A stretch of DNA of 64,000 nucleotides from a virus. The position numbers were made by a program, and so were the translations under genes. The first letter of the stretch is position 1; each line of letters starts with the position of its first letter. Under the pieces are notes generated by a model. That model ran no database searches and had not been told where the DNA came from. It was given only the letters and a program-made list of their open reading frames with translations. Positions 42,751-52,265 of this stretch are shown here, in pieces. The stretch is from UHGV virus genome UHGV-1378817. One strand, given 5' to 3'.

Positions 42751-42827
42751 TGGTCTCCACGGAGTGATTCGAACACTCGACCTCCTGATCCCAAATCAGG
42801 CGCTCTACCAAGCTGAGCTACGCGGAG
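42751..42827 (-). tRNA. tRNA-Pro (anticodon UGG)
   Basis: Hand-folded cloverleaf: acceptor CUCCGCG/CGUGGAG (one G-U), D-arm GCUC..GAGC, anticodon loop UUUGGGA, T-arm GAGUG-UUCGAAU-CACUC, encoded CCA. Confidence 0.8.
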
Positions 42828-42838
42828 TATTTATTATT

Positions 42839-42913
42839 TGGTGGCCCTGGGTGGAATTGAACCACCGTCTGGCGATTATGAGTCGCTTGCTTGAACCTTC
42901 CAGCTACAGGGCC
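42839..42913 (-). tRNA. tRNA-Met (anticodon CAU; elongator Met or Ile2, G1-C72 paired)
   Basis: Acceptor GGCCCUG/CAGGGCC perfect, anticodon loop CUCAUAA, T-arm GGUGG-UUCAAUU-CCACC, encoded CCA. Confidence 0.75.
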
Positions 42914-42914
42914 A

Positions 42915-42990
42915 TGGTGCTGATAGCAGGACTCGAACCTGCAACCTATTGATTACAAATCAATTGCACTACCAATTGTGCTACATCAGC
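42915..42990 (-). tRNA. tRNA-Thr (anticodon UGU)
   Basis: Acceptor GCUGAUG/UAUCAGC (one G-U), D-arm GCAC..GUGC, anticodon loop UUUGUAA, T-arm GCAGG-UUCGAGU-CCUGC, encoded CCA. Confidence 0.8.
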
Positions 42991-42995
42991 AAAAA

Positions 42996-43094
42996 GGTGC
43001 TAGGTGATGGAATCGAACCACCTATGTATTCAACGACTACCTCGTCTATTTTCAGGATTAAAAATCCTCGCCCTTGCCAAAGGGCTTACCTAGC
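42996..43094 (-). ncRNA. atypical tRNA-like gene (98 nt), possible pseudo/variant tRNA with UUU anticodon-like loop
   Basis: Perfect 7-bp acceptor GCUAGGU/ACCUAGC, D-arm GCCC-UUUGGCAA-GGGC, T-arm GGUGG-UUCGAUU-CCAUC, but 3' end is CC not CCA and there is a 30-nt extra region between anticodon and T arms. Confidence 0.35.
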
Positions 43095-43100
43095 TCAGTA

Positions 43101-43189
43101 TGTTGACCATGTTGCTAGTCGGCGATGACGACTGTAACATTTGATAATCCGGTTCTGCTTCCGGCTTTCGCTTAATTACAAGGTCAACA
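43101..43189. ncRNA. candidate structured RNA element inside tRNA cluster
   Basis: 8-bp terminal helix UGUUGACC...GGUCAACA encloses about 72 nt with two internal hairpins (AGUCG/CGACU and CCGG/CCGG); does not fold as a canonical tRNA by hand. Confidence 0.2.
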
Positions 43190-43192
43190 ATA

Positions 43193-43283
43193 TGGCTGAG
43201 GGTAATGGAATCGAACCATCATCGAGTCATCCTCAACGGGACGGTTTTCAAGACCGCTTGAGCACCATTGCTCCCTACCCTCA
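43193..43283 (-). tRNA. tRNA-Ser (anticodon UGA), type II
   Basis: 91 nt; acceptor UGAGGGU/ACCCUCA, anticodon stem GCGGU/ACCGU with loop CUUGAAA, long variable arm, T-arm GAUGG-UUCGAUU-CCAUU, discriminator G, encoded CCA. Confidence 0.7.
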
Positions 43284-43397
43284 TTTATAAACAATACTGA
43301 TAATGACACTGATTTTCGAGCAGTTAGTGACTAGTATAAACGACGATAAATATCAATGCCATTATCTGTATGATTTATGCATTTAAAACTATAAATT

Positions 43398-43484
43398 TGG
43401 TGGGGAGTGGTGGAGTCGAACCACCCGAGTCGCAATGACAATAGATTTACAGTCTACACCGCTACCTCTACGGGATAACTCCCC
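43398..43484 (-). tRNA. tRNA-Tyr (anticodon GUA), type II
   Basis: 87 nt; acceptor GGGGAGU/ACUCCCC, anticodon arm GUAGA-CUGUAAA-UCUAU, long variable arm, T-arm GGUGG-UUCGACU-CCACC, encoded CCA. Confidence 0.8.
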
Positions 43485-43488
43485 AATT

Positions 43489-43563
43489 TGGCACCCCGTA
43501 CTGGACTCGAACCAGTGTCAACGGCTTAGAAGGCCGCTGCTTTATCCACTAAGCTAACAGGGC
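43489..43563 (-). tRNA. tRNA-Arg (anticodon UCU)
   Basis: Acceptor GCCCUGU/ACGGGGU (two G-U), D-arm GCUU..AAGC, anticodon arm GCGGC-CUUCUAA-GCCGU, T-arm CUGG-UUCGAGU-CCAG, encoded CCA. Confidence 0.75.
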
Positions 43564-45443: not shown

Positions 45444-45539
45444 AACTACCTCCTCTTCAAGTTATAGAAAAACTCACTGTATCGCTTTGTAACGAGCTTT
45501 TCTATCAAACTGGTGCGATTGCCTTACCTGGTATAGTTT

Positions 45540-45820
45540 ATATAGCTGTGGAGCGATTTAGGTGCCTTCTTGTCCGTTTCCACACATAAACTTCATCCAA
45601 GCTCGCGCGGGAGACTCTCAACCGACTCCTTACGGCGCTGGCAAGCTTTCGTCGGTGGTCCACATCAGTGCTCGGCCTTTGGCCTGCGCTATCGCTTCGC
45701 TCCCACACATGTTAACAGACCTGCATGTATGCACTTCTGTTATTGTGTGCACCAGGGAGGCCCGGCATCTCGCCCCTCGTAGGCGAGTGCCAATGAAGGG
45801 CCGACACTACCCATAGTAAG
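45540..45820. other. GC-rich non-coding island (candidate structured RNA)
   Basis: GC-rich block within an AT-rich intergenic region; plus-strand ORFs 45562..45816 and 45570..45782 lack SD and look like composition artefacts. Confidence 0.25.
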
Positions 45821-45946: not shown

Positions 45947-46029
45947 GTGTCCGTATCACGGACAGTTAGTGTCCGTATTACGGGCAGATGTGTCCGCGTG
46001 ACGGACAGTAGTGTCCGTATCACGGACAG
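45947..46029. repeat. four phased dyad-symmetric iterons (candidate operator array or origin iterons)
   Basis: GTGTCCGTATCACGGACAG at 45947, variants at 45969 and 45990, exact repeat at 46011; each has arms TGTCCGT/ACGGACA; spacing 22, 21, 21 bp. Confidence 0.6.
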
Positions 46030-46103
46030 TTACTAACCTCTGTTCCATAGCGAACATAAAACATACGAATCCTTATAGTACAGATATTTAAGTTTTTACT
46101 GGT

Positions 46104-46454
46104 CTAACCAGTTGTTGACATTCGAATAACCTCTTCTGGTGGCAAAACTTTGGAAAATGTGCATCTTTTACCTCTCCCTTGTGTGGATATTTCAACCACT
46201 CCTGCACATTCTAAAGTTTTAACGCACGCTGCTGCTTTTGTTTTCTTTATCCCAACATCTGCTGCAATTTTCCTTGTGCTGGGTGTGAAGCGTGAACTTC
46301 CTCCAAGCTTATACCAGTTGTGCAGGTAGCAGTATACGATCTTGTCATACAAGTCAAGAACAACAACCTCCCCAGTTGTGTCATTCAAAACTTTTGACAT
46401 AGACAGTATTTCAAGGGGGACTTTAAGATATAGCAGCTTATCCCCATCTTTCAT
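46104..46454 (-). CDS. putative helix-turn-helix DNA-binding protein (116 aa)
   Basis: Segment SSRFTPSTRKIAADVGIKKTKAAACVKTLECAGVVEI resembles an HTH/winged-helix recognition unit; iteron array lies 75 nt downstream of its stop. Confidence 0.45.
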   Translation of the reverse strand: MKDGDKLLYLKVPLEILSMSKVLNDTTGEVVVLDLYDKIVYCYLHNWYKLGGSSRFTPSTRKIAADVGIKKTKAAACVKTLECAGVVEISTQGRGKRCTFSKVLPPEEVIRMSTTG

Positions 46455-46501: not shown

Positions 46502-47056
46502 TTACTCCCCGCTGTCAATAGCAAGACTCATTGCAATACTGTATGCCTCTTCTAATGGTAAGAGTCTACCCCACACATCCCAACCGACATCAAACTGCCT
46601 GCCAAACAACTGTTGTGTGGTTCCGTGAGCATGACCGAACAGTTGTACTGATCCGTGAGGCTTTCTGTTCCACTTTGCAAACTGGTAATGGCTCATACAG
46701 ATCAAATTCTTGTTGTGGCGAAGCTCGTAATAATCTACAACCTCATGATAGAACTCTTTCATAATTCTGACAGTCGTCCTTGTGTCATGGTTGCCACGAA
46801 CAAGAATAATATGTCCGTTCAACATATTTAGAATATCTGGAAGTAAGTTGTTGATATTTTTATCAGTAGTGCACGCAATATCTCCCAAGTGGAACACAGT
46901 GTCTGCAGGTGACACAACAGAGTTCCACTCGGCGATGATTCCCGCATTCATACTGTCAAGATTGTGATCATACTGAGATCTGTGTTTTTGACATGAATCA
47001 AACTCCATGACCCGCTGGTGGAGAAAGTGTGTGTCGCTTGTTACAAAGTATTTCAT
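46502..47056 (-). CDS. calcineurin-like metallophosphoesterase (candidate RNA-repair phosphatase), start revised
   Basis: Motifs SDTHF, HLGDIA, VRGNHD, FGHAHG; ATG at 47056 (MKYFVTSDTHF) lies just past the stop of the kinase gene; track ORF extends to 47161. Confidence 0.65.
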   Translation of the reverse strand: MKYFVTSDTHFLHQRVMEFDSCQKHRSQYDHNLDSMNAGIIAEWNSVVSPADTVFHLGDIACTTDKNINNLLPDILNMLNGHIILVRGNHDTRTTVRIMKEFYHEVVDYYELRHNKNLICMSHYQFAKWNRKPHGSVQLFGHAHGTTQQLFGRQFDVGWDVWGRLLPLEEAYSIAMSLAIDSGE

Positions 47057-47063
47057 ACATTCC

Positions 47064-47474
47064 TCATTTAAGTTTAATGCAGTTTTTAAGCTGGCGTTCC
47101 ATACGATCCACAACCCTGTCTGGAACATCATGAATGCTTTTATTACCGTGTCGGTTTTCAACCACGATTACGGTATAATTATACCCATGGCTGATTGCCA
47201 TGTCAACATATTCTTGCACATGTTTTTCTTTTGTAAACGTATTACTTACCACGATACGGTCGTATCCCATACGCATCATATCTTCTACGTTATCTTTGCA
47301 CCATTTTGCTGCAAGTGTTACTTTACTTGCATCCCAGTTGTAATTGCCGTCATCGTCGTACCAGAACATGTCGTTCTCAAAATGTGGATACAGACCTTCT
47401 AAAGATAGCGCATTTGCCAGTGTTGATTTGCCAGACCCTGGTAGACCACGCACGATATATAGCATTTTAGACAT
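47064..47474 (-). CDS. P-loop kinase, polynucleotide kinase-like, start revised
   Basis: Walker A GLPGSGKST (as in T4 Pnk kinase domain); ATG at 47474 with GGAGG SD; track ORF extends to 47531. Confidence 0.6.
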   Translation of the reverse strand: MSKMLYIVRGLPGSGKSTLANALSLEGLYPHFENDMFWYDDDGNYNWDASKVTLAAKWCKDNVEDMMRMGYDRIVVSNTFTKEKHVQEYVDMAISHGYNYTVIVVENRHGNKSIHDVPDRVVDRMERQLKNCIKLK

Positions 47475-47502
47475 AGTAATCCTCCGTTTTAATTTCAAAG
47501 AT

Positions 47503-47531
47503 AGTATACCTAACTGTTTTGTTAATTTCAA
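47503..47531 (-). promoter_or_regulatory. candidate promoter TTGAAA-17-TATACT for kinase/phosphatase operon
   Basis: Minus strand reads TTGAAA TTAACAAAACAGTTAGG TATACT in the 100-nt divergent intergenic region. Confidence 0.4.
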
Positions 47532-47592
47532 GTGTTGACACTAGGTTATTTGTGTGGCAGGATAGACTGACAAAATGACAAATGAGGAACGT

Positions 47593-48510
47593 ATGATGAA
47601 GTATTTTAATGCAGACGACCTAGTTGACAAAGGTCTTGTAACCAGTAGATATTACCCAGATCTTGGGTTAAAGATCTATAAATACGCCAGAAAAGTATTT
47701 TACAACAATTTATGGCATTTGTCCCCTCGTTTACTGGAGTGCCGAGGCATTGTTGTCGGTAATGAAGGAAATGTTGTGGCATGGCCCTTCACAAAAGTGT
47801 TTAACTTGGGAGAAAACTCCACCAACCTGCCTGACAATAAGCTTGTGACGGCGGTAGAGAAAAAGAACGGATTCCTTGGTGTGGTATCATCTCATAAAGG
47901 TGAACTATTGTTCTCAACAACCGGATCTCTTGATTCTCCATATTGTAACCTTGCAAAGGAAACCATCCAGGAGCAATGCGGTAATTTAGATCTTATCAAG
48001 AAGGTTATGGGCAATGAAAACATGACATTCATGTTTGAAATTTGTCACCCTTCAGATCCGCATATTGTTCAGGAAGATCATGGCGCATATTTGATAGGTT
48101 GCAGGTATAATGATTCTGGAATAATGCTACCAGAGGCAGCTTTAGATGGGATTGCCAAATACCTTGGTGCAAAACGTCCTCACACTGTGCGTGAAATTCC
48201 GTTCAGCTATGCAAAAGAATTGGCTGCAGAAACAAGAGGTGAAGGGTATATGATTCGTAAGCCTTACTATCCTTATGATCTGCAGCTGAAGATCAAGTCT
48301 CCATACTATCTGGCACGGAAGGCCGTAATGAGGGGTAAAGCTTGGAAGATTTGGGATGATGATATCTTTAAACGTGTTGACGAAGAGTTTTACGGCATGG
48401 TAAACTTCATTCGCAACAACTACACAGAGGATGTATGGAACTGCCTCCTGGAGCAGGAACGCCGTGAGATACTTGACTACTATTTCCACAACGAGGACTA
48501 TATGCAATGA
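47593..48510 (+). CDS. nucleotidyltransferase-superfamily ligase, RNA-ligase-like
   Basis: Motif I KKNGF (KxNG), motif IV-like EGYMIRK, motif V-like LKIKSP; start taken at ATG 47593 after GAGGA (track 47575); a TTGACA -35-like hexamer lies upstream at 47535. Confidence 0.5.
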   Translation: MMKYFNADDLVDKGLVTSRYYPDLGLKIYKYARKVFYNNLWHLSPRLLECRGIVVGNEGNVVAWPFTKVFNLGENSTNLPDNKLVTAVEKKNGFLGVVSSHKGELLFSTTGSLDSPYCNLAKETIQEQCGNLDLIKKVMGNENMTFMFEICHPSDPHIVQEDHGAYLIGCRYNDSGIMLPEAALDGIAKYLGAKRPHTVREIPFSYAKELAAETRGEGYMIRKPYYPYDLQLKIKSPYYLARKAVMRGKAWKIWDDDIFKRVDEEFYGMVNFIRNNYTEDVWNCLLEQERREILDYYFHNEDYMQ

Positions 48511-48857
48511 AGAAGTTGATTGTGTGGCTGGATGACTTGAGAGACCCGTCAAATTATGGGCTCCCAGACGCTATTTGGCTAAAGAATTCCTCCGAGTTTA
48601 TGGATTTTATTAACGATAATAGAAAGCTCTACAGACGCGTTTCTGAGTGGCATATGGACAACGACCTTGGAGAGGTATTAGAAGGGTACGATTGTCTATC
48701 TATGTTGGAGGAAAAATTTGTATTTGGTAAGCCTCCTGTAGTTGACAACGTGAAGATTTTCGTGCATACTTCTAACCCATCAGCTGCTCGTAAATTCATG
48801 CTTGCAGCTGACTCGTTTAAAAAGTTTGGAATAGAGATTAAACAAAACATCTACTGA
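48507..48857 (+). CDS. hypothetical protein (116 aa), receiver-like fold suspected
   Basis: ATGA overlap with upstream gene; pattern IVWLDDLRD...WHMDNDLG...VKIFVHTSNP loosely resembles a CheY-like receiver topology (weak). Confidence 0.4.
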   Translation: MKKLIVWLDDLRDPSNYGLPDAIWLKNSSEFMDFINDNRKLYRRVSEWHMDNDLGEVLEGYDCLSMLEEKFVFGKPPVVDNVKIFVHTSNPSAARKFMLAADSFKKFGIEIKQNIY

Positions 48858-48865
48858 GGACACTT

Positions 48866-49627
48866 ATGCGACGACTTATTATTATCTCCGGTGCTGGTTT
48901 GAGCGCTGAATCTGGTATTCCCACTTTCCGATCTGGTAGCACTGCAATGTGGGAGAATTTCAGCATCGATGAGGTGTGCAACATCCACACCTTTGCCAAG
49001 AACTACTATAAGGTGCATGACTTTTACAATGCACGTCGTGTAGCTCTAGGCAGTGTTGAGCCTAACCTTGCACATCTTCGGATCGCTGAGTGGTATTCCC
49101 GCTGGTCTGGTCGTGTGATCAACCTTACCACCAATGTAGATGATTTGCTGGAGCGTGCTGGTGTAAAACATGAAGATATTTTACATGTCCACGGGTATTT
49201 GCCAGAAATAGTCTATGAGGACGATGAAGGAAGTGACGTCATTAAGGACATTGGATACTCTGAGGTAGACGCAGGAAAGTATACCTGGGTTAAGCCTAAT
49301 GTGGTGTTCTTCGGAGAAGTAGCTCCGAAGTATACAGACATGTATGACCTGTTGACTTCTCTTACGAGCAATGATATGGTTATCCTTGTAGGGTGCTCCA
49401 ACACAGTTATCAATTTTAACTGGGAGCTATTCCCTGCCTGCAATAAGGGAACAAAACTGCTGATCGTTAACAAATACGACTCACAGCAGCTAGGGGAGAA
49501 TGGCATTTCACGTAGTGATATTTACCAATATGAGGATCGCGGCATCCCAGTTTGGTTTAACGGGGCGGTTGATGCTTTCTCTGATAAAACATTCATTGAG
49601 ACCGTAGAAAACTTTATGGAACTTTAA
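48866..49627 (+). CDS. Sir2-family NAD-dependent protein (sirtuin-like)
   Basis: GAGLSAESGIPTFR matches the sirtuin GAGIS..SGIP.FR motif; later TTNVDDLLERAG and HG..P blocks; GAGGA SD. Confidence 0.7.
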   Translation: MRRLIIISGAGLSAESGIPTFRSGSTAMWENFSIDEVCNIHTFAKNYYKVHDFYNARRVALGSVEPNLAHLRIAEWYSRWSGRVINLTTNVDDLLERAGVKHEDILHVHGYLPEIVYEDDEGSDVIKDIGYSEVDAGKYTWVKPNVVFFGEVAPKYTDMYDLLTSLTSNDMVILVGCSNTVINFNWELFPACNKGTKLLIVNKYDSQQLGENGISRSDIYQYEDRGIPVWFNGAVDAFSDKTFIETVENFMEL

Positions 49628-49640
49628 AAGGAGACCTTTA

Positions 49641-50354
49641 ATGCTGAATACCAAATTAATTGACAACCTGGAAAAACTGTCCCAACCTGAAAACTACCTT
49701 TGGTCTGCCAACTGGGTGGAAAACTGGAACCGTGTGGCAGCTAAAGTGAAAAAATCATACACACCATTCGAATTACAGCTTAGCTTCATTGAGGAAGAGT
49801 TCAATGAAGTTTTGGAAGAGCTGGAGAAAGGTGATGGCGGAGATCACCTGCTAAAAGAGGCCTGCGATCTTCACGTTGTCACAAGTTATGCCGCTTATCT
49901 TGTTAATGATAATCACGAAAAGTGGTCAAACCTGTTTGATAATCCACAGGGTCTTAAGTTCAAGATCGGTGAGTTCTATGATACACTGATCGCTGCGAAA
50001 AACACCTCTAAGCAAAAAGCGTCCGCTTACCGCTTAGCAGAGTTGTCAACAGCTTTGCTGTTCCAGCTTCGCGGCGATGTGTGCGGGATGATGCGTAAGG
50101 TTCTCAAATCGAATGACAGCAAGTTTGCACGGGTCAACCATCTACGGTATTCACACGGTGCCAGTGCAGATATGCCTGCTGAACAACTCATCGAGTTGGA
50201 GATTAAAGATCTTGAGCGACGCTTTGATGGTCGATATGAAGGTTTTGTTGCTAAGGAAGAATTCTACAACGGTAATAAAGTTATCATATTCCTTGACAGC
50301 AAAGGTAAGATCATGAAGCCTTCGAGCTTCAAGGATGTAACAGAGTATATTTAA
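49641..50354 (+). CDS. MazG-like all-alpha NTP pyrophosphohydrolase domain protein
   Basis: EEEFNEVLEELEKGD ... EACDLH fits the ExxE...ExxD metal-binding pattern; AAGGAG SD. Confidence 0.4.
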   Translation: MLNTKLIDNLEKLSQPENYLWSANWVENWNRVAAKVKKSYTPFELQLSFIEEEFNEVLEELEKGDGGDHLLKEACDLHVVTSYAAYLVNDNHEKWSNLFDNPQGLKFKIGEFYDTLIAAKNTSKQKASAYRLAELSTALLFQLRGDVCGMMRKVLKSNDSKFARVNHLRYSHGASADMPAEQLIELEIKDLERRFDGRYEGFVAKEEFYNGNKVIIFLDSKGKIMKPSSFKDVTEYI

Positions 50355-50360
50355 CAACAT

Positions 50361-50386
50361 AGCCGGGATTACCCGGCTTTACTTGT
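50361..50386 (+). terminator. intrinsic terminator
   Basis: AGCCGGG-AUUA-CCCGGCU followed by UUUACUUGUUG immediately after stop of 49641..50354. Confidence 0.5.
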
Positions 50387-50417
50387 TGTGGAAAGTATGC
50401 AAGTGAGGAAGATAGTT

Positions 50418-50726
50418 ATGTACAAGCACTCTAGAGATCTTGAAAACGATGCTGTGTTTGGGGATCAGATGAAAGAGTTGGTTAAACTCATAGGCAGGAT
50501 AGAGGATAAGTTTGACACTAAGATCTACATCGACAGCAAAGTATTCAACCACAAAATATGGACAAATCTGTGTGTTGGACTACATGGAGATAAAGATGTG
50601 GTAAATTTAGTTGTAATTAAGTTCATAGTGTGGCAGAATAAAACTATAAATTATTACGATCCACACCTGCTTGTTTACCCGATAAAAGACCTATTAGATA
50701 AGGAGGACTGCAGTGCCGTTATTTAA
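50418..50726 (+). CDS. hypothetical protein (102 aa), start revised
   Basis: Track start GTG 50388 lies inside terminator tail; ATG 50418 has GAGGAAG SD. Confidence 0.4.
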   Translation: MYKHSRDLENDAVFGDQMKELVKLIGRIEDKFDTKIYIDSKVFNHKIWTNLCVGLHGDKDVVNLVVIKFIVWQNKTINYYDPHLLVYPIKDLLDKEDCSAVI

Positions 50727-50982
50727 TCTTGCTAAACCTGTAGAAGCACACCAGTTTGACGGAAGCTCTTCATCAGTATCTGATCTGCAACGGTGGATTG
50801 ATACAGGTGTGTTTACATCGTCACCTGTTCGTACCAGAGATCTTCGTCGCATGTGTGAGCTTGTCGAGCCGTTTGGTAACCTGGTCTTGTACCAGGGAGA
50901 TTGGTTAGTTGACTTTATGGGAGACTGGTTGGTAATGAGTAAAGAAGAGATGTTTAACATTTTTAAGGAAGAGGCCGAGTAA
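50713..50982 (+). CDS. hypothetical protein (89 aa)
   Basis: GTG start with AAGGAGGA SD 6 nt upstream. Confidence 0.4.
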   Translation: MPLFNLAKPVEAHQFDGSSSSVSDLQRWIDTGVFTSSPVRTRDLRRMCELVEPFGNLVLYQGDWLVDFMGDWLVMSKEEMFNIFKEEAE

Positions 50983-52265
50983 TGCATCAGATCAAAACAA
51001 CACTGTACGCACTGAACAAAGATGGCAGCTACCAACAGTGGAAAGTATTCACGGATGGTGATAAGGTTATCGTAGAGTTTGGCAAGCTTGATGGTAAACT
51101 GCAATACAAAGAGACGGTATGCACGCCTAAGAACGTAGGTCGTGCCAACGAGACTACCGCTGAGCAACAGGCCGAGCTTGAGGCTATTAGCAAGTGGGAA
51201 AAACAAGTCCGTCTTGGGTATGTTGAGAATATGGAAGATTGCGAGCAGGGTGTTGACCTTTTACCCATGCTGGTGCATGACTACCTGAAGCGTGGCAAGG
51301 CTCTTAAATTACCTTGCTGGATCTTGCGTAAGTTAGATGGCCTTCGTCTACTTGTTGTTTTCCAGAATGGTGAGCCCAAATTTATTTCCCGTGGTAATAA
51401 GTCCTACCCTATTCAAGGAAAGCTTCTGGAGCAACTTCGCTCTTTCCACCTCACCACTGGGATTAAACAGCTCGACGGAGAGCTCTATATTCATGGTCTG
51501 CCTCTGCAGAAAATAGTTTCTCTTGCTAAACGATGGCGCACACAGGAAGAAATTCAGGCCGAGATCGATAAAGACTACAAGGCAGATAAAAAACGCCGTC
51601 AGGCTGCTATTAAGGCAGGTTTAGCAACATACAAAAACTTCAATAAGATGGACATTCCTGTTGATGTTGAGCCTGTTCGTGATGATTTGCGTTACGGAGG
51701 GTATTGCAGCTACGACTTAGAGTATCATATTTTCGATATCCCTAGCGATAAGGTGTGGTGGGATCCTGAAACAGAGTCTGGGCGCTGTAAGGATCTTATG
51801 GAGGCAAATGGTGCCATTTCTTCTTTGATGCTTGATCATATTAAGGTTGTTGATGCAGAGCTTGCATATACAGTTGATCGGTGCGAAGAGTCTGTTGGTA
51901 TATTTATGTCTGAGGGATATGAAGGTACCATTATGCGTAACTTCTGTGGTAAGTATGAGTATGGTCAGCGAACATCTGAAGCATTGAAATGGAAAAAGTT
52001 CAACGACGCAGAGGTGAAAGTTATTGACGTTGAGAAAGATAAGAATGATGAAGGTGTTCTTATCTGTGTTGACAAGGAGGGTGTTGTTGTTAAAATGAAG
52101 ATGAAAGGCACGCACGAGGAGCGTAGCTATGACAGGATGCAGGAAATGATCGGCAAGTTTGTCACCTTCAAATATCAAGCAAGGACAGAAGACAACAATT
52201 ACCAATTCCCTGTCGGTATCTGCGTCCGAAATGTTAACCCGGACACTTGGGAGGTGCTGGAATGA
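50982..52265 (+). CDS. ATP-dependent DNA ligase
   Basis: Motif I KLDGLR (KxDGxR adenylation lysine) at about aa 115; 427 aa. Confidence 0.7.
   Translation: MHQIKTTLYALNKDGSYQQWKVFTDGDKVIVEFGKLDGKLQYKETVCTPKNVGRANETTAEQQAELEAISKWEKQVRLGYVENMEDCEQGVDLLPMLVHDYLKRGKALKLPCWILRKLDGLRLLVVFQNGEPKFISRGNKSYPIQGKLLEQLRSFHLTTGIKQLDGELYIHGLPLQKIVSLAKRWRTQEEIQAEIDKDYKADKKRRQAAIKAGLATYKNFNKMDIPVDVEPVRDDLRYGGYCSYDLEYHIFDIPSDKVWWDPETESGRCKDLMEANGAISSLMLDHIKVVDAELAYTVDRCEESVGIFMSEGYEGTIMRNFCGKYEYGQRTSEALKWKKFNDAEVKVIDVEKDKNDEGVLICVDKEGVVVKMKMKGTHEERSYDRMQEMIGKFVTFKYQARTEDNNYQFPVGICVRNVNPDTWEVLE

What the first reader, a model, noticed from the sequence alone, without database searches (positions are those of the whole stretch)
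48507..50354. Sir2-like protein flanked by a receiver-like ORF and a MazG-like ORF, directly downstream of the RNA ligase
A phage-encoded sirtuin-family protein (GAGLSAESGIPTFR) is uncommon and NAD-consuming. Together with a putative NTP pyrophosphohydrolase and an uncharacterised 116-aa protein it forms a small co-transcribed block. These could act on host NAD or nucleotide pools, or be counter-defence factors.
Basis: partly seen in the sequence, partly recalled or inferred. Interest (0 to 1): 0.6.

Follow-up and report, generated by a model that had tools for sequence, protein, structure and literature searches.

The report
Phage sirtuin inside an RNA-repair operon
The three genes are real and belong to a tRNA/RNA-break repair gene cluster of an rV5-like E. 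coli phage. This sirtuin-containing cluster was already described and interpreted from genome comparisons in 2022, but no one has tested it at the bench.

Summary
The window is a Vequintavirus (rV5-like) E. coli phage. Four tightly coupled + strand genes end at a terminator-like hairpin:
- an Rnl1-like RNA ligase (47575-48510)
- a 116-aa cREC 'cyclic-phosphate-processing receiver' protein (48507-48857)
- a 253-aa sirtuin (48866-49627)
- a 237-aa MazG/HisE-like protein (49641-50354)

A P-loop kinase and a metallophosphoesterase are transcribed divergently just upstream.

The sirtuin keeps all NAD-binding and catalytic residues, including His109, and the class III Tyr/Arg acidic pocket. It has lost the zinc ribbon. 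Its closest sequence and fold matches are the deacylases CobB and SIRT5, not defence NADases.

Homologues sit next to RNA-end-healing genes in rV5/Mydo/phi92-like phages, T5-like phages (HAD_SAK_2) and a jumbo phage (Rnl1).

Iyer et al. 2022 (PMC9503650) describe exactly this neighbourhood, naming phage V5. They predict a Tpt1/KptA-like, NAD-dependent removal of RNA 2'-phosphate by the sirtuin. I take that as the best, still untested, explanation. An ordinary protein-deacylase role is the main rival.

The MazG-like gene is the loosest member. Its family also occurs without the sirtuin, beside DNA ligase and dNTP-metabolism genes.

Verdict: real, moderately interesting, already known computationally.

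The parts
46502..47056 (-). Calcineurin-like metallophosphoesterase (184 aa as annotated in relatives). Candidate 2',3'-cyclic phosphodiesterase or 3'/2'-phosphatase for RNA ends.
   Evidence: Pfam Metallophos 5.3e-7 and Metallophos_2 3.3e-6; phrog_547 phosphoesterase 1.8e-52; PDB 1xm7 8.4e-11. All metal-ligand motifs are invariant in 15 homologues, numbered on the longer 219-aa ORF 46502-47161: D43xH45, G93D94, G123N124H125, H158, H177xH179.
47064..47474 (-). P-loop (AAA_33) kinase, a candidate RNA 5'-OH polynucleotide kinase.
   Evidence: Pfam AAA_33 6.6e-11; phrog_2071 9e-59 and phrog_505 'polynucleotide kinase' 6e-10. Annotated '3'-phosphatase, 5'-polynucleotide kinase' in phage Gotham. 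The P-loop GxxGxGKST and D54 are invariant in 13 homologues.
47475..47574 (.). Divergent intergenic region between the kinase and RNA ligase genes. The GC-skew sign changes here.
   Evidence: Composition profile. Promoter-like hexamers on the - strand at 47531-47503. A promoter is predicted at the same place in phage Gotham. No promoter has been shown experimentally.
47575..48510 (+). T4 Rnl1-like RNA ligase (311 aa).
   Evidence: PF09511 6.4e-15; phrog_562 1.3e-66. Motif I K96-x-N98-G99, E155 and K239-x-K241 are invariant in 12 homologues. It scores far below the NCBIfam T4 RnlA equivalog cutoff, 39 against 242 bits.
48507..48857 (+). cREC (cyclic-phosphate-processing receiver-fold) protein, 116 aa.
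   Evidence: PF20274 1.3e-14; phrog_1479. D51, D53, H87, S89, N90, P91 and K96 are invariant, and D9, D10, D13 and T88 nearly so, in 17 homologues at 36-73% identity. No solved relative was found by sequence.
48866..49627 (+). Zn-ribbon-less, class III-like sirtuin (253 aa).
   Evidence: PF02146 3e-27. Best PDB sequence hits are SIRT5 and E. coli CobB at about 2e-21. AF2 model pLDDT 89.5. Foldseek top hits are CobB 6rxq/1s5p at E 2e-18, TM 0.74-0.83. Invariant across 21 homologues: G9 A10 G11 S16 G17 F21 R22, Y54/R57, N90/D92, H109, and FxE within the FGE motif (G150 nearly invariant); there is no Cys where CobB has its Zn ligands.
49641..50354 (+). MazG/HisE-superfamily (all-alpha NTP pyrophosphatase-like) protein with a conserved C-terminal extension of unknown fold (237 aa).
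   Evidence: phrog_671 6e-22. PRA-PH hits 31 of 46 family members and MazG hits 11 of 46. HisE 1yvw E 0.007-0.014 over the EExxE...D helix pair only. Invariant: N30 E53 E56 D76 N158 K161 K223 K226. The single-sequence AF2 model is unusable, pLDDT 47.6.
50361..50378 (+). Terminator-like hairpin AGCCGGG-ATTA-CCCGGCT followed by a T-rich tail. It closes the four-gene unit.
   Evidence: Terminator scan; sequence; annotated as a terminator (ARNold) at the same place in phage Gotham.
42751..43563 (-). Cluster of 7 phage tRNA genes about 3 kb from the repair genes. This is context: possible substrates.
   Evidence: ARAGORN; Rfam tRNA hits.

Best explanation
The three ORFs are the downstream part of a six-gene RNA-break (probably tRNA) repair locus of an rV5-like phage.

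Proposed sequence of events (inferred throughout):
1. Host ribonucleases, such as anticodon nucleases used as abortive-infection weapons, leave a 2',3'-cyclic phosphate end and a 5'-OH end.
2. The P-loop kinase phosphorylates the 5'-OH.
3. The cREC protein and/or the metallophosphoesterase open and trim the cyclic phosphate.
4. The Rnl1-like ligase seals the break.
5. The sirtuin uses NAD+ to take off a remaining 2'-phosphate, as Tpt1/KptA does. This releases nicotinamide and ADP-ribose 1'',2''-cyclic phosphate, which cREC could then linearise.

What is shown here: gene identities, intact catalytic motifs in all five enzymes, operon structure, and recurrence of the sirtuin next to RNA-end-healing genes in several phage lineages.

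What is inferred: every biochemical step, above all the Tpt1-like chemistry. That chemistry was proposed by Iyer et al. 2022 and has not been tested.

The MazG-like protein is probably a nucleotide pyrophosphatase. Its tie to the sirtuin is loose.
For: (1) Gene content: Rnl1-like ligase, cREC, SIR2, AAA_33 kinase and Metallophos, all with invariant catalytic residues.

(2) Operon anatomy: an ATGA overlap, 8- and 13-nt gaps with ribosome-binding sites, and a terminator hairpin.

(3) Recurrence:
- 14 of 58 IMG/VR loci carry PE-Rnl-(cREC)-Kin-Sir2-DNA ligase-...-MazG-like. These are rV5-, Mydo- and phi92-like phages. The linkage persists although the kinase and phosphoesterase are inverted in rV5-like phages (the window and L001), the gene order differs, and Sir2 identity is only 44-56%.
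- In T5 and its relatives the orthologous sirtuin (58% identity) is followed by PF18143 HAD_SAK_2, a 'Swiss Army Knife RNA repair' phosphatase.
- In a 607-kb phage an Rnl1 gene lies two genes upstream of the sirtuin.
- In a 279-kb phage the sirtuin is flanked by DUF4326 and a nucleoside deoxyribosyltransferase-like gene.

(4) The class III Tyr/Arg pair, Y54/R57, is invariant. In SIRT5 the equivalent Y102/R105 binds an acidic group. It could hold a phosphate; that is my inference.

(5) Sirtuin chemistry runs parallel to the two Tpt1 steps: a nucleophile attacks C1' of the nicotinamide ribose, then the ribose 2'-OH attacks. This rests on established mechanism knowledge.

(6) PMC9503650, section 3.7.3, describes this neighbourhood with phage V5 as prototype and reaches the same prediction.

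(7) A 7-gene tRNA cluster lies about 3 kb away.
Against: - No experiment exists. None was found in the literature searches.
- By sequence and fold the protein is closest to bona fide protein deacylases, CobB and SIRT5, and it keeps the FGE/acyl-lysine channel motifs.
- The whole clade is strongly acidic: pI 4.7-5.8, net charge -6 to -19. That is unusual for an RNA-binding enzyme.
- A kinase, a metallophosphoesterase and Rnl1 would already suffice for T4- or Clostridium-type healing and sealing, so a 2'-phosphate step is not obviously needed.
- The rV5-, Mydo-, phi92- and phAPEC8-like phages are related, so part of the linkage may be inherited synteny.
- In the phAPEC8-like group the sirtuin has no recognisable RNA-repair neighbour within 4 kb.
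- cREC is missing beside the sirtuin in phi92-like loci.
Confidence: 0.45

Rival explanations
1. The sirtuin is an ordinary class III NAD-dependent protein-lysine deacylase (deacetylase or desuccinylase, like CobB). It acts on host or phage proteins. One speculative target is the catalytic lysines of the neighbouring RNA and DNA ligases, which it would keep free of acylation. Its position in the repair locus then reflects co-regulation or a protein substrate, not RNA chemistry.
For: - Best sequence hits are SIRT5 and CobB at about 2e-21.
- Best fold hits are CobB-peptide complexes at E 2e-18.
- NCBIfam deacylase models are the only hits.
- The catalytic His, the N/D pair, FGE and the succinyl-binding Tyr/Arg pair are all invariant.
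- The protein is acidic, as expected for a protein-binding rather than RNA-binding enzyme.
- In Mydo- and phi92-like phages the gene lies directly between the kinase and the ATP-dependent DNA ligase.
Against: - Scores are far below the CobB equivalog cutoffs, 122 against 243 bits.
- The zinc ribbon, which forms part of the peptide-binding cleft in canonical sirtuins, is lost in the whole clade.
- The host already has CobB.
- It does not explain the repeated association with RNA-end phosphatases such as HAD_SAK_2 in T5-like phages, or with cREC.
Confidence: 0.25
2. The block manipulates NAD or nucleotide pools or immune signals. The sirtuin acts as an NADase or as a degrader of NAD-derived signals. 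cREC and MazG clean up cyclic or linear nucleotide messengers (cADPR variants, cyclic oligonucleotides, (p)ppGpp) to blunt Thoeris-, CBASS- or Sir2-type defences.
For: - cREC is predicted in the literature to linearise cyclic ADPr or cyclic phosphates.
- In a 152.7-kb phage, cREC lies next to NAPRTase and PRPP synthetase, which are NAD salvage genes.
- In a 279-kb phage, the sirtuin is flanked by DUF4326 and a DrHyd-like gene. The literature links DUF4326 to ADPr-derivative processing.
- MazG-superfamily enzymes hydrolyse nucleotides.
Against: - The sirtuin hits no PADLOC defence Sir2 model.
- No defence-type Sir2 structure is among the top 50 fold hits.
- Depleting NAD would copy what host defences do to stop phage.
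- The adjacent RNA ligase, kinase and phosphoesterase are not explained.
- Distant MazG-like family members sit beside dNTP-metabolism genes, not immune-evasion genes.
Confidence: 0.12
3. There is no single module. The genes are neighbours because of inherited synteny in a 'nucleic-acid enzymes' region of rV5-like genomes. The MazG-like protein is a dNTP or NTP house-cleaning or pool enzyme tied to DNA ligase and DNA metabolism. The sirtuin and cREC are independent accessory insertions.
For: - A distant MazG-like member lies in Metallophos-Rnl1-AAA_33-DNA ligase-x-x-MazG-like with no sirtuin and no cREC.
- Others lie beside DNMK, ThyX and RNR.
- A 152.7-kb phage has cREC, a phosphoesterase homologue, DNA ligase and a MazG-like gene with no sirtuin within 7 kb.
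- In sister phages the MazG-like gene is separated from the sirtuin by DNA ligase and two other genes.
Against: - In this phage the four genes are translationally coupled and share one terminator.
- The sirtuin is independently next to RNA-end enzymes in unrelated T5-like and jumbo phages.
Confidence: 0.15

Closest known systems
The phage 'sirtuin-centred RNA repair' neighbourhood of Iyer, Burroughs, Anantharaman & Aravind 2022 (Viruses 14:1977, PMC9503650, section 3.7.3, type 2, prototype Escherichia phage V5 / Proteus phage Mydo)
   Same: The gene set is identical: sirtuin, T4-like RNA ligase, cREC, nucleotide kinase, MazG-superfamily protein and calcineurin-like phosphoesterase. The window is 97-98.6% identical to rV5-like genomes.
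   Different: Nothing substantive. Details added here:
- loss of the Zn ribbon
- retention of the class III Tyr/Arg pocket
- the acidic pI of the clade
- operon boundaries
- the weaker linkage of the MazG-like gene
E. coli CobB / human SIRT5 (class III sirtuin protein deacylases)
   Same: Best sequence and fold matches. The GAGxSxxSGIPxFR motif, the N/D of the QNID motif, the catalytic His, FGE and the Tyr/Arg acidic-acyl pocket are all conserved.
   Different: About 26% identity over the fold. No zinc-binding cysteines. The Q of QNID is a Thr. It scores below the CobB equivalog cutoffs. It is restricted to phages: no relative was found in 185,579 species genomes with clade-specific patterns. 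It is embedded among RNA-end enzymes.
Tpt1/KptA RNA 2'-phosphotransferase with the yeast/plant Trl1 pathway (cyclic phosphodiesterase, kinase and Rnl1-type ligase, then NAD-dependent 2'-phosphate removal)
   Same: The proposed workflow and the NAD-consuming two-step chemistry would be the same. The ligase is Rnl1-like and the kinase is a P-loop enzyme, as in Trl1.
   Different: There is no homology: Tpt1 has an ART fold and the sirtuin a Rossmann fold. The cyclic phosphodiesterase would be cREC or a metallophosphoesterase instead of a 2H enzyme. The sirtuin is acidic. The activity is untested.
T4 Pnkp-Rnl1 and Clostridium thermocellum Pnkp/Hen1 RNA repair
   Same: A kinase, a phosphoesterase and a ligase counter tRNA anticodon nucleases. 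The metallophosphoesterase plays the role of the CthPnkp phosphatase domain.
   Different: The enzymes are separate polypeptides. There is no HAD phosphatase domain and no Hen1. A sirtuin and cREC are added.
Defence-associated Sir2 NADases (ThsA, DSR1/2, Sir2-HerA, SPARSA) and macrodomain-linked SirTM
   Same: Same superfamily, and they consume NAD.
   Different: No hit to any PADLOC Sir2 model. There are no SLOG, HerA, pAgo or Macro partners among the flanking genes. The gene is encoded by lytic phages.

Membership tests
Sirtuin (SIR2, PF02146) superfamily | Passes the Pfam gathering score; has the Rossmann NAD-binding motif GAGxSxxSGIPxFR | tested here: met
   96.2 bits against a cutoff of 24. 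G9 A10 G11 S16 G17 F21 R22 are invariant in 21 homologues.
Sirtuin (SIR2, PF02146) superfamily | Catalytic His and the Asn/Asp of the QNID motif | tested here: met
   H109 aligns with the CobB and SIRT5 catalytic His. N90, D92 and H109 are invariant. The Q position is T89.
Sirtuin (SIR2, PF02146) superfamily | Four-Cys zinc-ribbon module in the small domain | tested here: not met
   There is no Cys in residues 113-143 in any of the 21 clade members, whereas CobB has C...CxCC there. The AF2 model keeps a small three-stranded sheet in that position.
Class III sirtuins (CobB/SIRT5 deacylases) | Tyr-x-x-Arg acidic-acyl pocket (SIRT5 Y102/R105) | tested here: met
   FYNARR aligns with SIRT5 FYHYRR and CobB FYNARR. 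Y54 and R57 are invariant.
Class III sirtuins (CobB/SIRT5 deacylases) | Reaches the curated equivalog score for CobB-type deacylases | tested here: not met
   Best NCBIfam hit is NF001753 at 122 bits against a cutoff of 243; prot_deacyl_CobB scores 103 against 320.
Class III sirtuins (CobB/SIRT5 deacylases) | NAD-dependent removal of acyl groups from lysine | not testable with these tools
   This needs an enzyme assay.
Defence-type Sir2 NADases (ThsA, DSR, Sir2-HerA, SPARSA) | Match to defence Sir2 profile models; partner SLOG, HerA or pAgo domain or gene | tested here: not met
   No PADLOC Sir2 model is hit; the only hit is a chance-level PDC-S65 at 0.0076. The neighbours are ligase, cREC, MazG-like, kinase and phosphoesterase genes.
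SirTM (macrodomain-linked ADP-ribosylating sirtuins) | Adjacent or fused Macro domain gene | tested here: not met
   None of the flanking ORFs from 46104 to 52265 matches Macro.
Tpt1/KptA RNA 2'-phosphotransferase (functional analogy only) | NAD-dependent transfer of RNA 2'-phosphate to give ADP-ribose 1'',2''-cyclic phosphate | not testable with these tools
   There is no homology. This is a prediction from context.
cREC_REC (PF20274) | Passes the gathering score; has the receiver-type acidic active site; has no histidine-kinase partner | tested here: met
   55 bits against a cutoff of 27. D51, D53, H87, S89 and K96 are invariant and D9, D10 and T88 nearly so. No histidine-kinase domain is among the flanking ORFs scanned.
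cREC_REC (PF20274) | Hydrolysis of 2',3'-cyclic or 1'',2''-cyclic phosphates | not testable with these tools
   The activity is itself only a literature prediction.
MazG/HisE all-alpha NTP pyrophosphatase superfamily | Passes the Pfam gathering score for MazG or PRA-PH | tested here: not met
   The window protein scores 13.7 bits against a cutoff of 21.3. At family level, 31 of 46 members hit PRA-PH (best 3.9e-7) and 11 of 46 hit MazG.
MazG/HisE all-alpha NTP pyrophosphatase superfamily | EExxE ... D metal-binding helix pair | tested here: met
   E53, E56 and D76 are invariant and E52 nearly so in 46 sequences. They align to the corresponding HisE 1yvw and MazG 3crc helices.
MazG/HisE all-alpha NTP pyrophosphatase superfamily | Four-helix-bundle fold | tested here: inconclusive
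   The single-sequence AF2 model is helical in the N-terminal two thirds, but its pLDDT is 47.6.
T4 Rnl1-type RNA ligase (PF09511) | Gathering score and the nucleotidyltransferase motifs (KxNG lysine, motif V KxK) | tested here: met
   56 bits against a cutoff of 28.3. K96, N98, G99, E155, K239 and K241 are invariant. It is not an RnlA equivalog: 39 against 242 bits.

The most novel reading that the evidence does not exclude
The phage sirtuin is a nucleic-acid enzyme: a Rossmann-fold, zinc-less analogue of Tpt1. It would use NAD+ to strip 2'-phosphates from broken or re-ligated tRNA, with its class III Tyr/Arg pocket re-used to bind phosphate. cREC would linearise the resulting ADP-ribose cyclic phosphate. 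Together with the kinase and the Rnl1-like ligase, this would be a yeast/plant-type tRNA ligation pathway rebuilt from unrelated folds in a phage, serving as a counter-defence. The idea is already published as a prediction. Only its demonstration would be new.
Probability: 0.25. Interest if true: 0.75.

Novelty: already known. Interest (0 to 1): 0.35.

Why it matters
If the sirtuin really dephosphorylates RNA with NAD+, it would be a new reaction class for a heavily studied enzyme family. It would also be a new way for phages to undo tRNA-cleaving bacterial immunity.

Orthologues occur in well-studied phage groups: T5 itself, rV5-like phages including members of the BASEL collection, and Mydo-, phi92- and phAPEC8-like relatives. 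Genetics and biochemistry are therefore straightforward.

As it stands, the finding repeats an existing annotation and a published computational prediction.

Tried and rejected
- **MazG-like structure.** Single-sequence AlphaFold gave pLDDT 47.6 and is unusable. It also consumed one of only two structure jobs, so no fold search was possible for this protein.
- **MazG-like profile searches.** Profile searches against the PDB matched only the EExxE...D helix pair of HisE and MazG, at E 0.007-0.2. The conserved C-terminal part has no recognisable family; its invariant residues are N158, K161, K223 and K226 (motifs SNDSK and GKIMKP).
- **The 162-aa protein that replaces cREC in phi92-like phages.** I tested whether it belongs to a known ADPr-processing family. 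It has no Pfam hit even at E 10 and no PDB hit. A NADAR-like impression from reading the sequence is therefore dropped.
- **Defence-type Sir2.** Rejected on PADLOC and fold-search results.
- **cREC, kinase and RNA ligase against PDB sequences.** No hits.
- **Cellular relatives of the sirtuin clade.** A search of 185,579 species genomes with clade-specific peptide patterns found none.
- **Literature.** Searches for experimental work on phage sirtuins, cREC, or rV5/T5 Sir2 found only the two comparative-genomics papers.
- **GC-rich non-coding stretch at 45535-45815.** Rfam scans gave nothing credible.

Full report
**What is there**

The window is an rV5-like (Vequintavirus) E. coli myophage. Nucleotides 47500-50400 are 97-98.6% identical to RudolfGeigy, bov10K2, rV5_ev147 and about 120 other deposited genomes, where the central gene is already annotated as a Sir2/sirtuin deacetylase.

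- 47575-48510: Rnl1-like RNA ligase, PF09511, 6.4e-15
- 48507-48857: 116 aa, PF20274 cREC_REC, 1.3e-14
- 48866-49627: 253 aa, PF02146 SIR2, 3e-27
- 49641-50354: 237 aa, with only PRA-PH at 0.085 in Pfam but phrog_671 'nucleotide pyrophosphohydrolase' at 6e-22

Two further genes are transcribed divergently just upstream. One is an AAA_33 P-loop kinase (47064-47474, - strand). The other is a calcineurin-like metallophosphoesterase (46502-47056, - strand). The GC skew changes sign at the divergence point.

The four + strand genes are tightly coupled:
- The ligase stop and the cREC start overlap as ATGA.
- Gaps of 8 and 13 nt follow, each with a GAGGA/AGGAG ribosome-binding site.
- A GC-rich hairpin, AGCCGGG-ATTA-CCCGGCT, lies 7 nt after the last stop.
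- The same terminator and a divergent promoter are annotated in phage Gotham.

Seven tRNA genes lie about 3 kb away, at 42751-43563 on the - strand.

**The sirtuin**

phmmer against PDB sequences ranks the hits as follows:

| Hit | E-value |
|---|---|
| SIRT5 and E. coli CobB | about 2e-21 |
| Archaeoglobus Sir2-Af1/Af2 | next |
| Sir2Tm | 1e-13 |
| SIRT2 | 2e-12 |

This is a class III-like ranking.

The alignment puts H109 ('LHVHGYL') on the catalytic His of CobB and SIRT5. It puts FYNARR on SIRT5 FYHYRR, so Y54 and R57 correspond to SIRT5 Y102 and R105, the pair that binds the carboxylate of succinyl-lysine.

Across 21 phage homologues at 50-62% identity, the following are invariant:
- G9 A10 G11 S16 G17 F21 R22
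- F53 Y54 R57 R58
- N90 D92
- H109 G110
- P144 N145 V146 F148 F149 E151
- G176 S178 N179
- N202

No member has a cysteine in the 30-residue segment that replaces the CobB zinc ribbon.

An AlphaFold model built on this alignment is confident: pLDDT 89.5, pTM 0.87. Its best PDB fold matches are CobB-peptide complexes at E 2e-18, TM 0.74-0.83, followed by SIRT5 and Af1. No defence-type Sir2 or SirTM appears in the top 50.

Further classification results:
- No PADLOC defence Sir2 model is hit.
- NCBIfam CobB equivalog models are hit far below cutoff, 122 against 243 bits.
- The clade is strongly acidic: pI 4.7-5.8, net charge -6 to -19.
- Clade-specific peptide patterns found no relative in 185,579 species genomes.

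The catalytic His and the NAD-binding residues are present. By sequence and fold the protein is of the deacylase (class III) type, not the NADase type, but it is a divergent, zinc-less, phage-restricted clade.

**cREC**

The 116-aa protein is not a signalling receiver. It belongs to the cREC family, named by Iyer et al. 2021 (PMC7824862) as a predicted cyclic-phosphate-processing receiver-fold enzyme that is never paired with histidine kinases.

In 17 homologues at 36-73% identity, the receiver-type active site is kept. D51, D53, H87, S89, N90, P91 and K96 are invariant, and D9, D10, D13 and T88 are nearly so. No solved relative is detectable by sequence.

**The MazG-like protein**

An exhaustive HMM search found only 168 cluster representatives at E of 1e-3 or better among 1.84 billion proteins. 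Most are 205-260 aa and match over their full length.

In 46 diverse members, N30, E53, E56, D76, V79, N158, K161, K223 and K226 are invariant. Thirty-one of the 46 match Pfam PRA-PH (HisE) and 11 match MazG. The profile aligns the EExxE...D helix pair to HisE 1yvw and MazG 3crc, at E 0.007-0.2.

So it is an all-alpha NTP-pyrophosphatase superfamily member with a conserved C-terminal module (SNDSK, GRY, GKIMKP) of unknown fold. The single-sequence structure model failed, with pLDDT 47.6.

**Context elsewhere**

A scan of IMG/VR found 58 loci with a sirtuin of this clade, falling into 23 clusters at 80% identity.

- **rV5-, Mydo- and phi92-like phages (14 loci, contigs up to 153 kb).** Most carry phosphoesterase, Rnl1, (cREC), kinase, sirtuin, DNA ligase, an o89 homologue, another small gene and MazG-like, co-directionally; the shorter or more divergent loci lack some members. 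In rV5-like phages (the window and L001) the kinase and phosphoesterase are inverted and the MazG-like gene abuts the sirtuin.
- **phi92-like loci.** cREC is absent beside the sirtuin. An unrelated 162-aa protein (phrog_652, no Pfam or PDB match) takes its place.
- **T5 and its relatives.** L002 is a 121,750-bp contig I take to be T5 itself. The orthologue (58% identity) is followed by a PF18143 HAD_SAK_2 'Swiss Army Knife RNA repair' phosphatase.
- **A 607-kb phage.** An Rnl1 gene lies two genes upstream of the sirtuin.
- **A 279-kb phage.** The sirtuin is flanked by DUF4326 and a deoxyribosyltransferase-like gene.
- **The phAPEC8-like group.** No RNA-repair gene is seen within 4 kb.

The MazG-like family tracks other genes:
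- One distant member lies in Metallophos-Rnl1-AAA_33-DNA ligase-x-x-MazG-like with no sirtuin or cREC.
- Others lie beside DNMK, ThyX and RNR.
- A 152.7-kb phage has cREC near NAPRTase and PRPP synthetase, a phosphoesterase homologue, DNA ligase and a MazG-like member, with no sirtuin within 7 kb.

In short, the sirtuin is linked to RNA-end enzymes in at least three phage lineages. The link between the MazG-like gene and the sirtuin is weak.

All five enzymes in the window locus keep their catalytic motifs:
- ligase: K96xNG, E155, K239xK241
- kinase: P-loop and D54
- phosphoesterase: DxH, GD, GNH, H, HxH

**Literature**

Iyer, Burroughs, Anantharaman and Aravind (Viruses 2022, PMC9503650, section 3.7.3) describe precisely this neighbourhood. 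[quoted passage not shown]

They also describe the T5-like (SP15) HAD variant and a jumbo-phage variant with 2H, Nudix, cREC and PIN. They propose that the sirtuin acts like KptA/Tpt1 in removing 2'-phosphates. In their scheme cREC and the other phosphoesterases either open the cyclic phosphate or process ADPr>P.

Their text states that cREC is experimentally uncharacterised. My searches found no later experimental work on phage sirtuins, cREC, or the rV5 and T5 genes.

**Interpretation**

The best-supported reading is that these ORFs belong to a phage RNA-break repair locus. It would counter host ribonucleases that leave 2',3'-cyclic phosphate and 5'-OH ends. The sirtuin would supply an NAD-dependent step. 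I put this at about 0.45 overall and the specific Tpt1-like chemistry at about 0.25.

Two points add to the published argument. First, the invariant Tyr/Arg acidic pocket could accommodate a phosphate. Second, sirtuin chemistry mirrors the two Tpt1 steps: attack on C1' of the nicotinamide ribose, then attack by the ribose 2'-OH.

Four points count against it:
- The protein is closest to true protein deacylases.
- The clade is very acidic.
- Kinase, metallophosphoesterase and Rnl1 would already suffice for T4- or Clostridium-type repair.
- Part of the linkage may be inherited synteny among related myophages.

The main rival, at about 0.25, is a conventional class III protein deacylase acting on host or phage proteins. 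It leaves the ligase, kinase and phosphoesterase unexplained, and the sirtuin does not resemble defence NADases.

**Verdict**

It misses the RNA-repair context.

Both the annotation and the functional hypothesis are already in the literature, with this very phage genus as the prototype. Novelty is therefore 'already known', and interest is moderate at 0.35. The residual value is that an unusual predicted sirtuin activity remains untested in easily handled phages.

Noticed in passing
window 45947-46032: Four tandem 21-22 nt repeats, GTGTCCGTATCACGGACAGTTA, each internally palindromic (TGTCCGT..ACGGACA). They lie just beyond the 3' end of the 116-aa winged-helix 'replication initiation protein' gene at 46104-46454 (-). 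They look like iterons and are a candidate origin or operator.
   Followed up: partly
window 45535-45815: A GC-rich 280-nt stretch with no credible ORF lies between two - strand genes. It folds somewhat better than shuffled sequence (z -2.2 and -2.4 on the two strands) and matches no Rfam family. It may be a non-coding RNA.
   Followed up: partly
window 42996-43094 (-): Within the 7-gene tRNA cluster, ARAGORN calls a 99-nt 'tRNA-???' with a four-base anticodon, atcc. Rfam scores it as a tRNA at only 35.5 bits. It could be an odd or intron-bearing tRNA, or a pseudogene.
   Followed up: no
L040 5302-5790 and L050 5079-5564: In phi92-like relatives, a conserved 162-aa protein (phrog_652, no Pfam or PDB match) sits between the kinase and the sirtuin, exactly where rV5/Mydo-like phages have cREC. 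It may be a non-homologous replacement.
   Followed up: partly
L065 2376-11662: In a 152.7-kb phage, cREC lies next to NAPRTase and PRPP synthetase (NAD salvage genes), T4_Y16D, a homologue of the window's metallophosphoesterase, a DNA ligase and a MazG-like family member. No sirtuin is nearby.
   Followed up: partly
L002 7651-8481 (phage T5): Two tandem paralogous DUF7415 genes (142 and 130 aa) follow the Sir2 and HAD_SAK_2 pair in T5-like phages. Their function is unknown.
   Followed up: no
window 47500-50400 against the phage database: Eighteen records named as Campylobacter phages (16 listing Campylobacter jejuni as host) share at least 90% nucleotide identity with this E. coli rV5-like region. 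This suggests mislabelled hosts or contamination in those deposits.
   Followed up: no
window 50388-50982: Two small conserved genes of unknown function (112 aa, phrog_7684; 89 aa, phrog_14585) lie between the terminator and the ATP-dependent DNA ligase at 50982-52265. Homologues travel with the repair and ligase block in Mydo- and phi92-like phages.
   Followed up: partly
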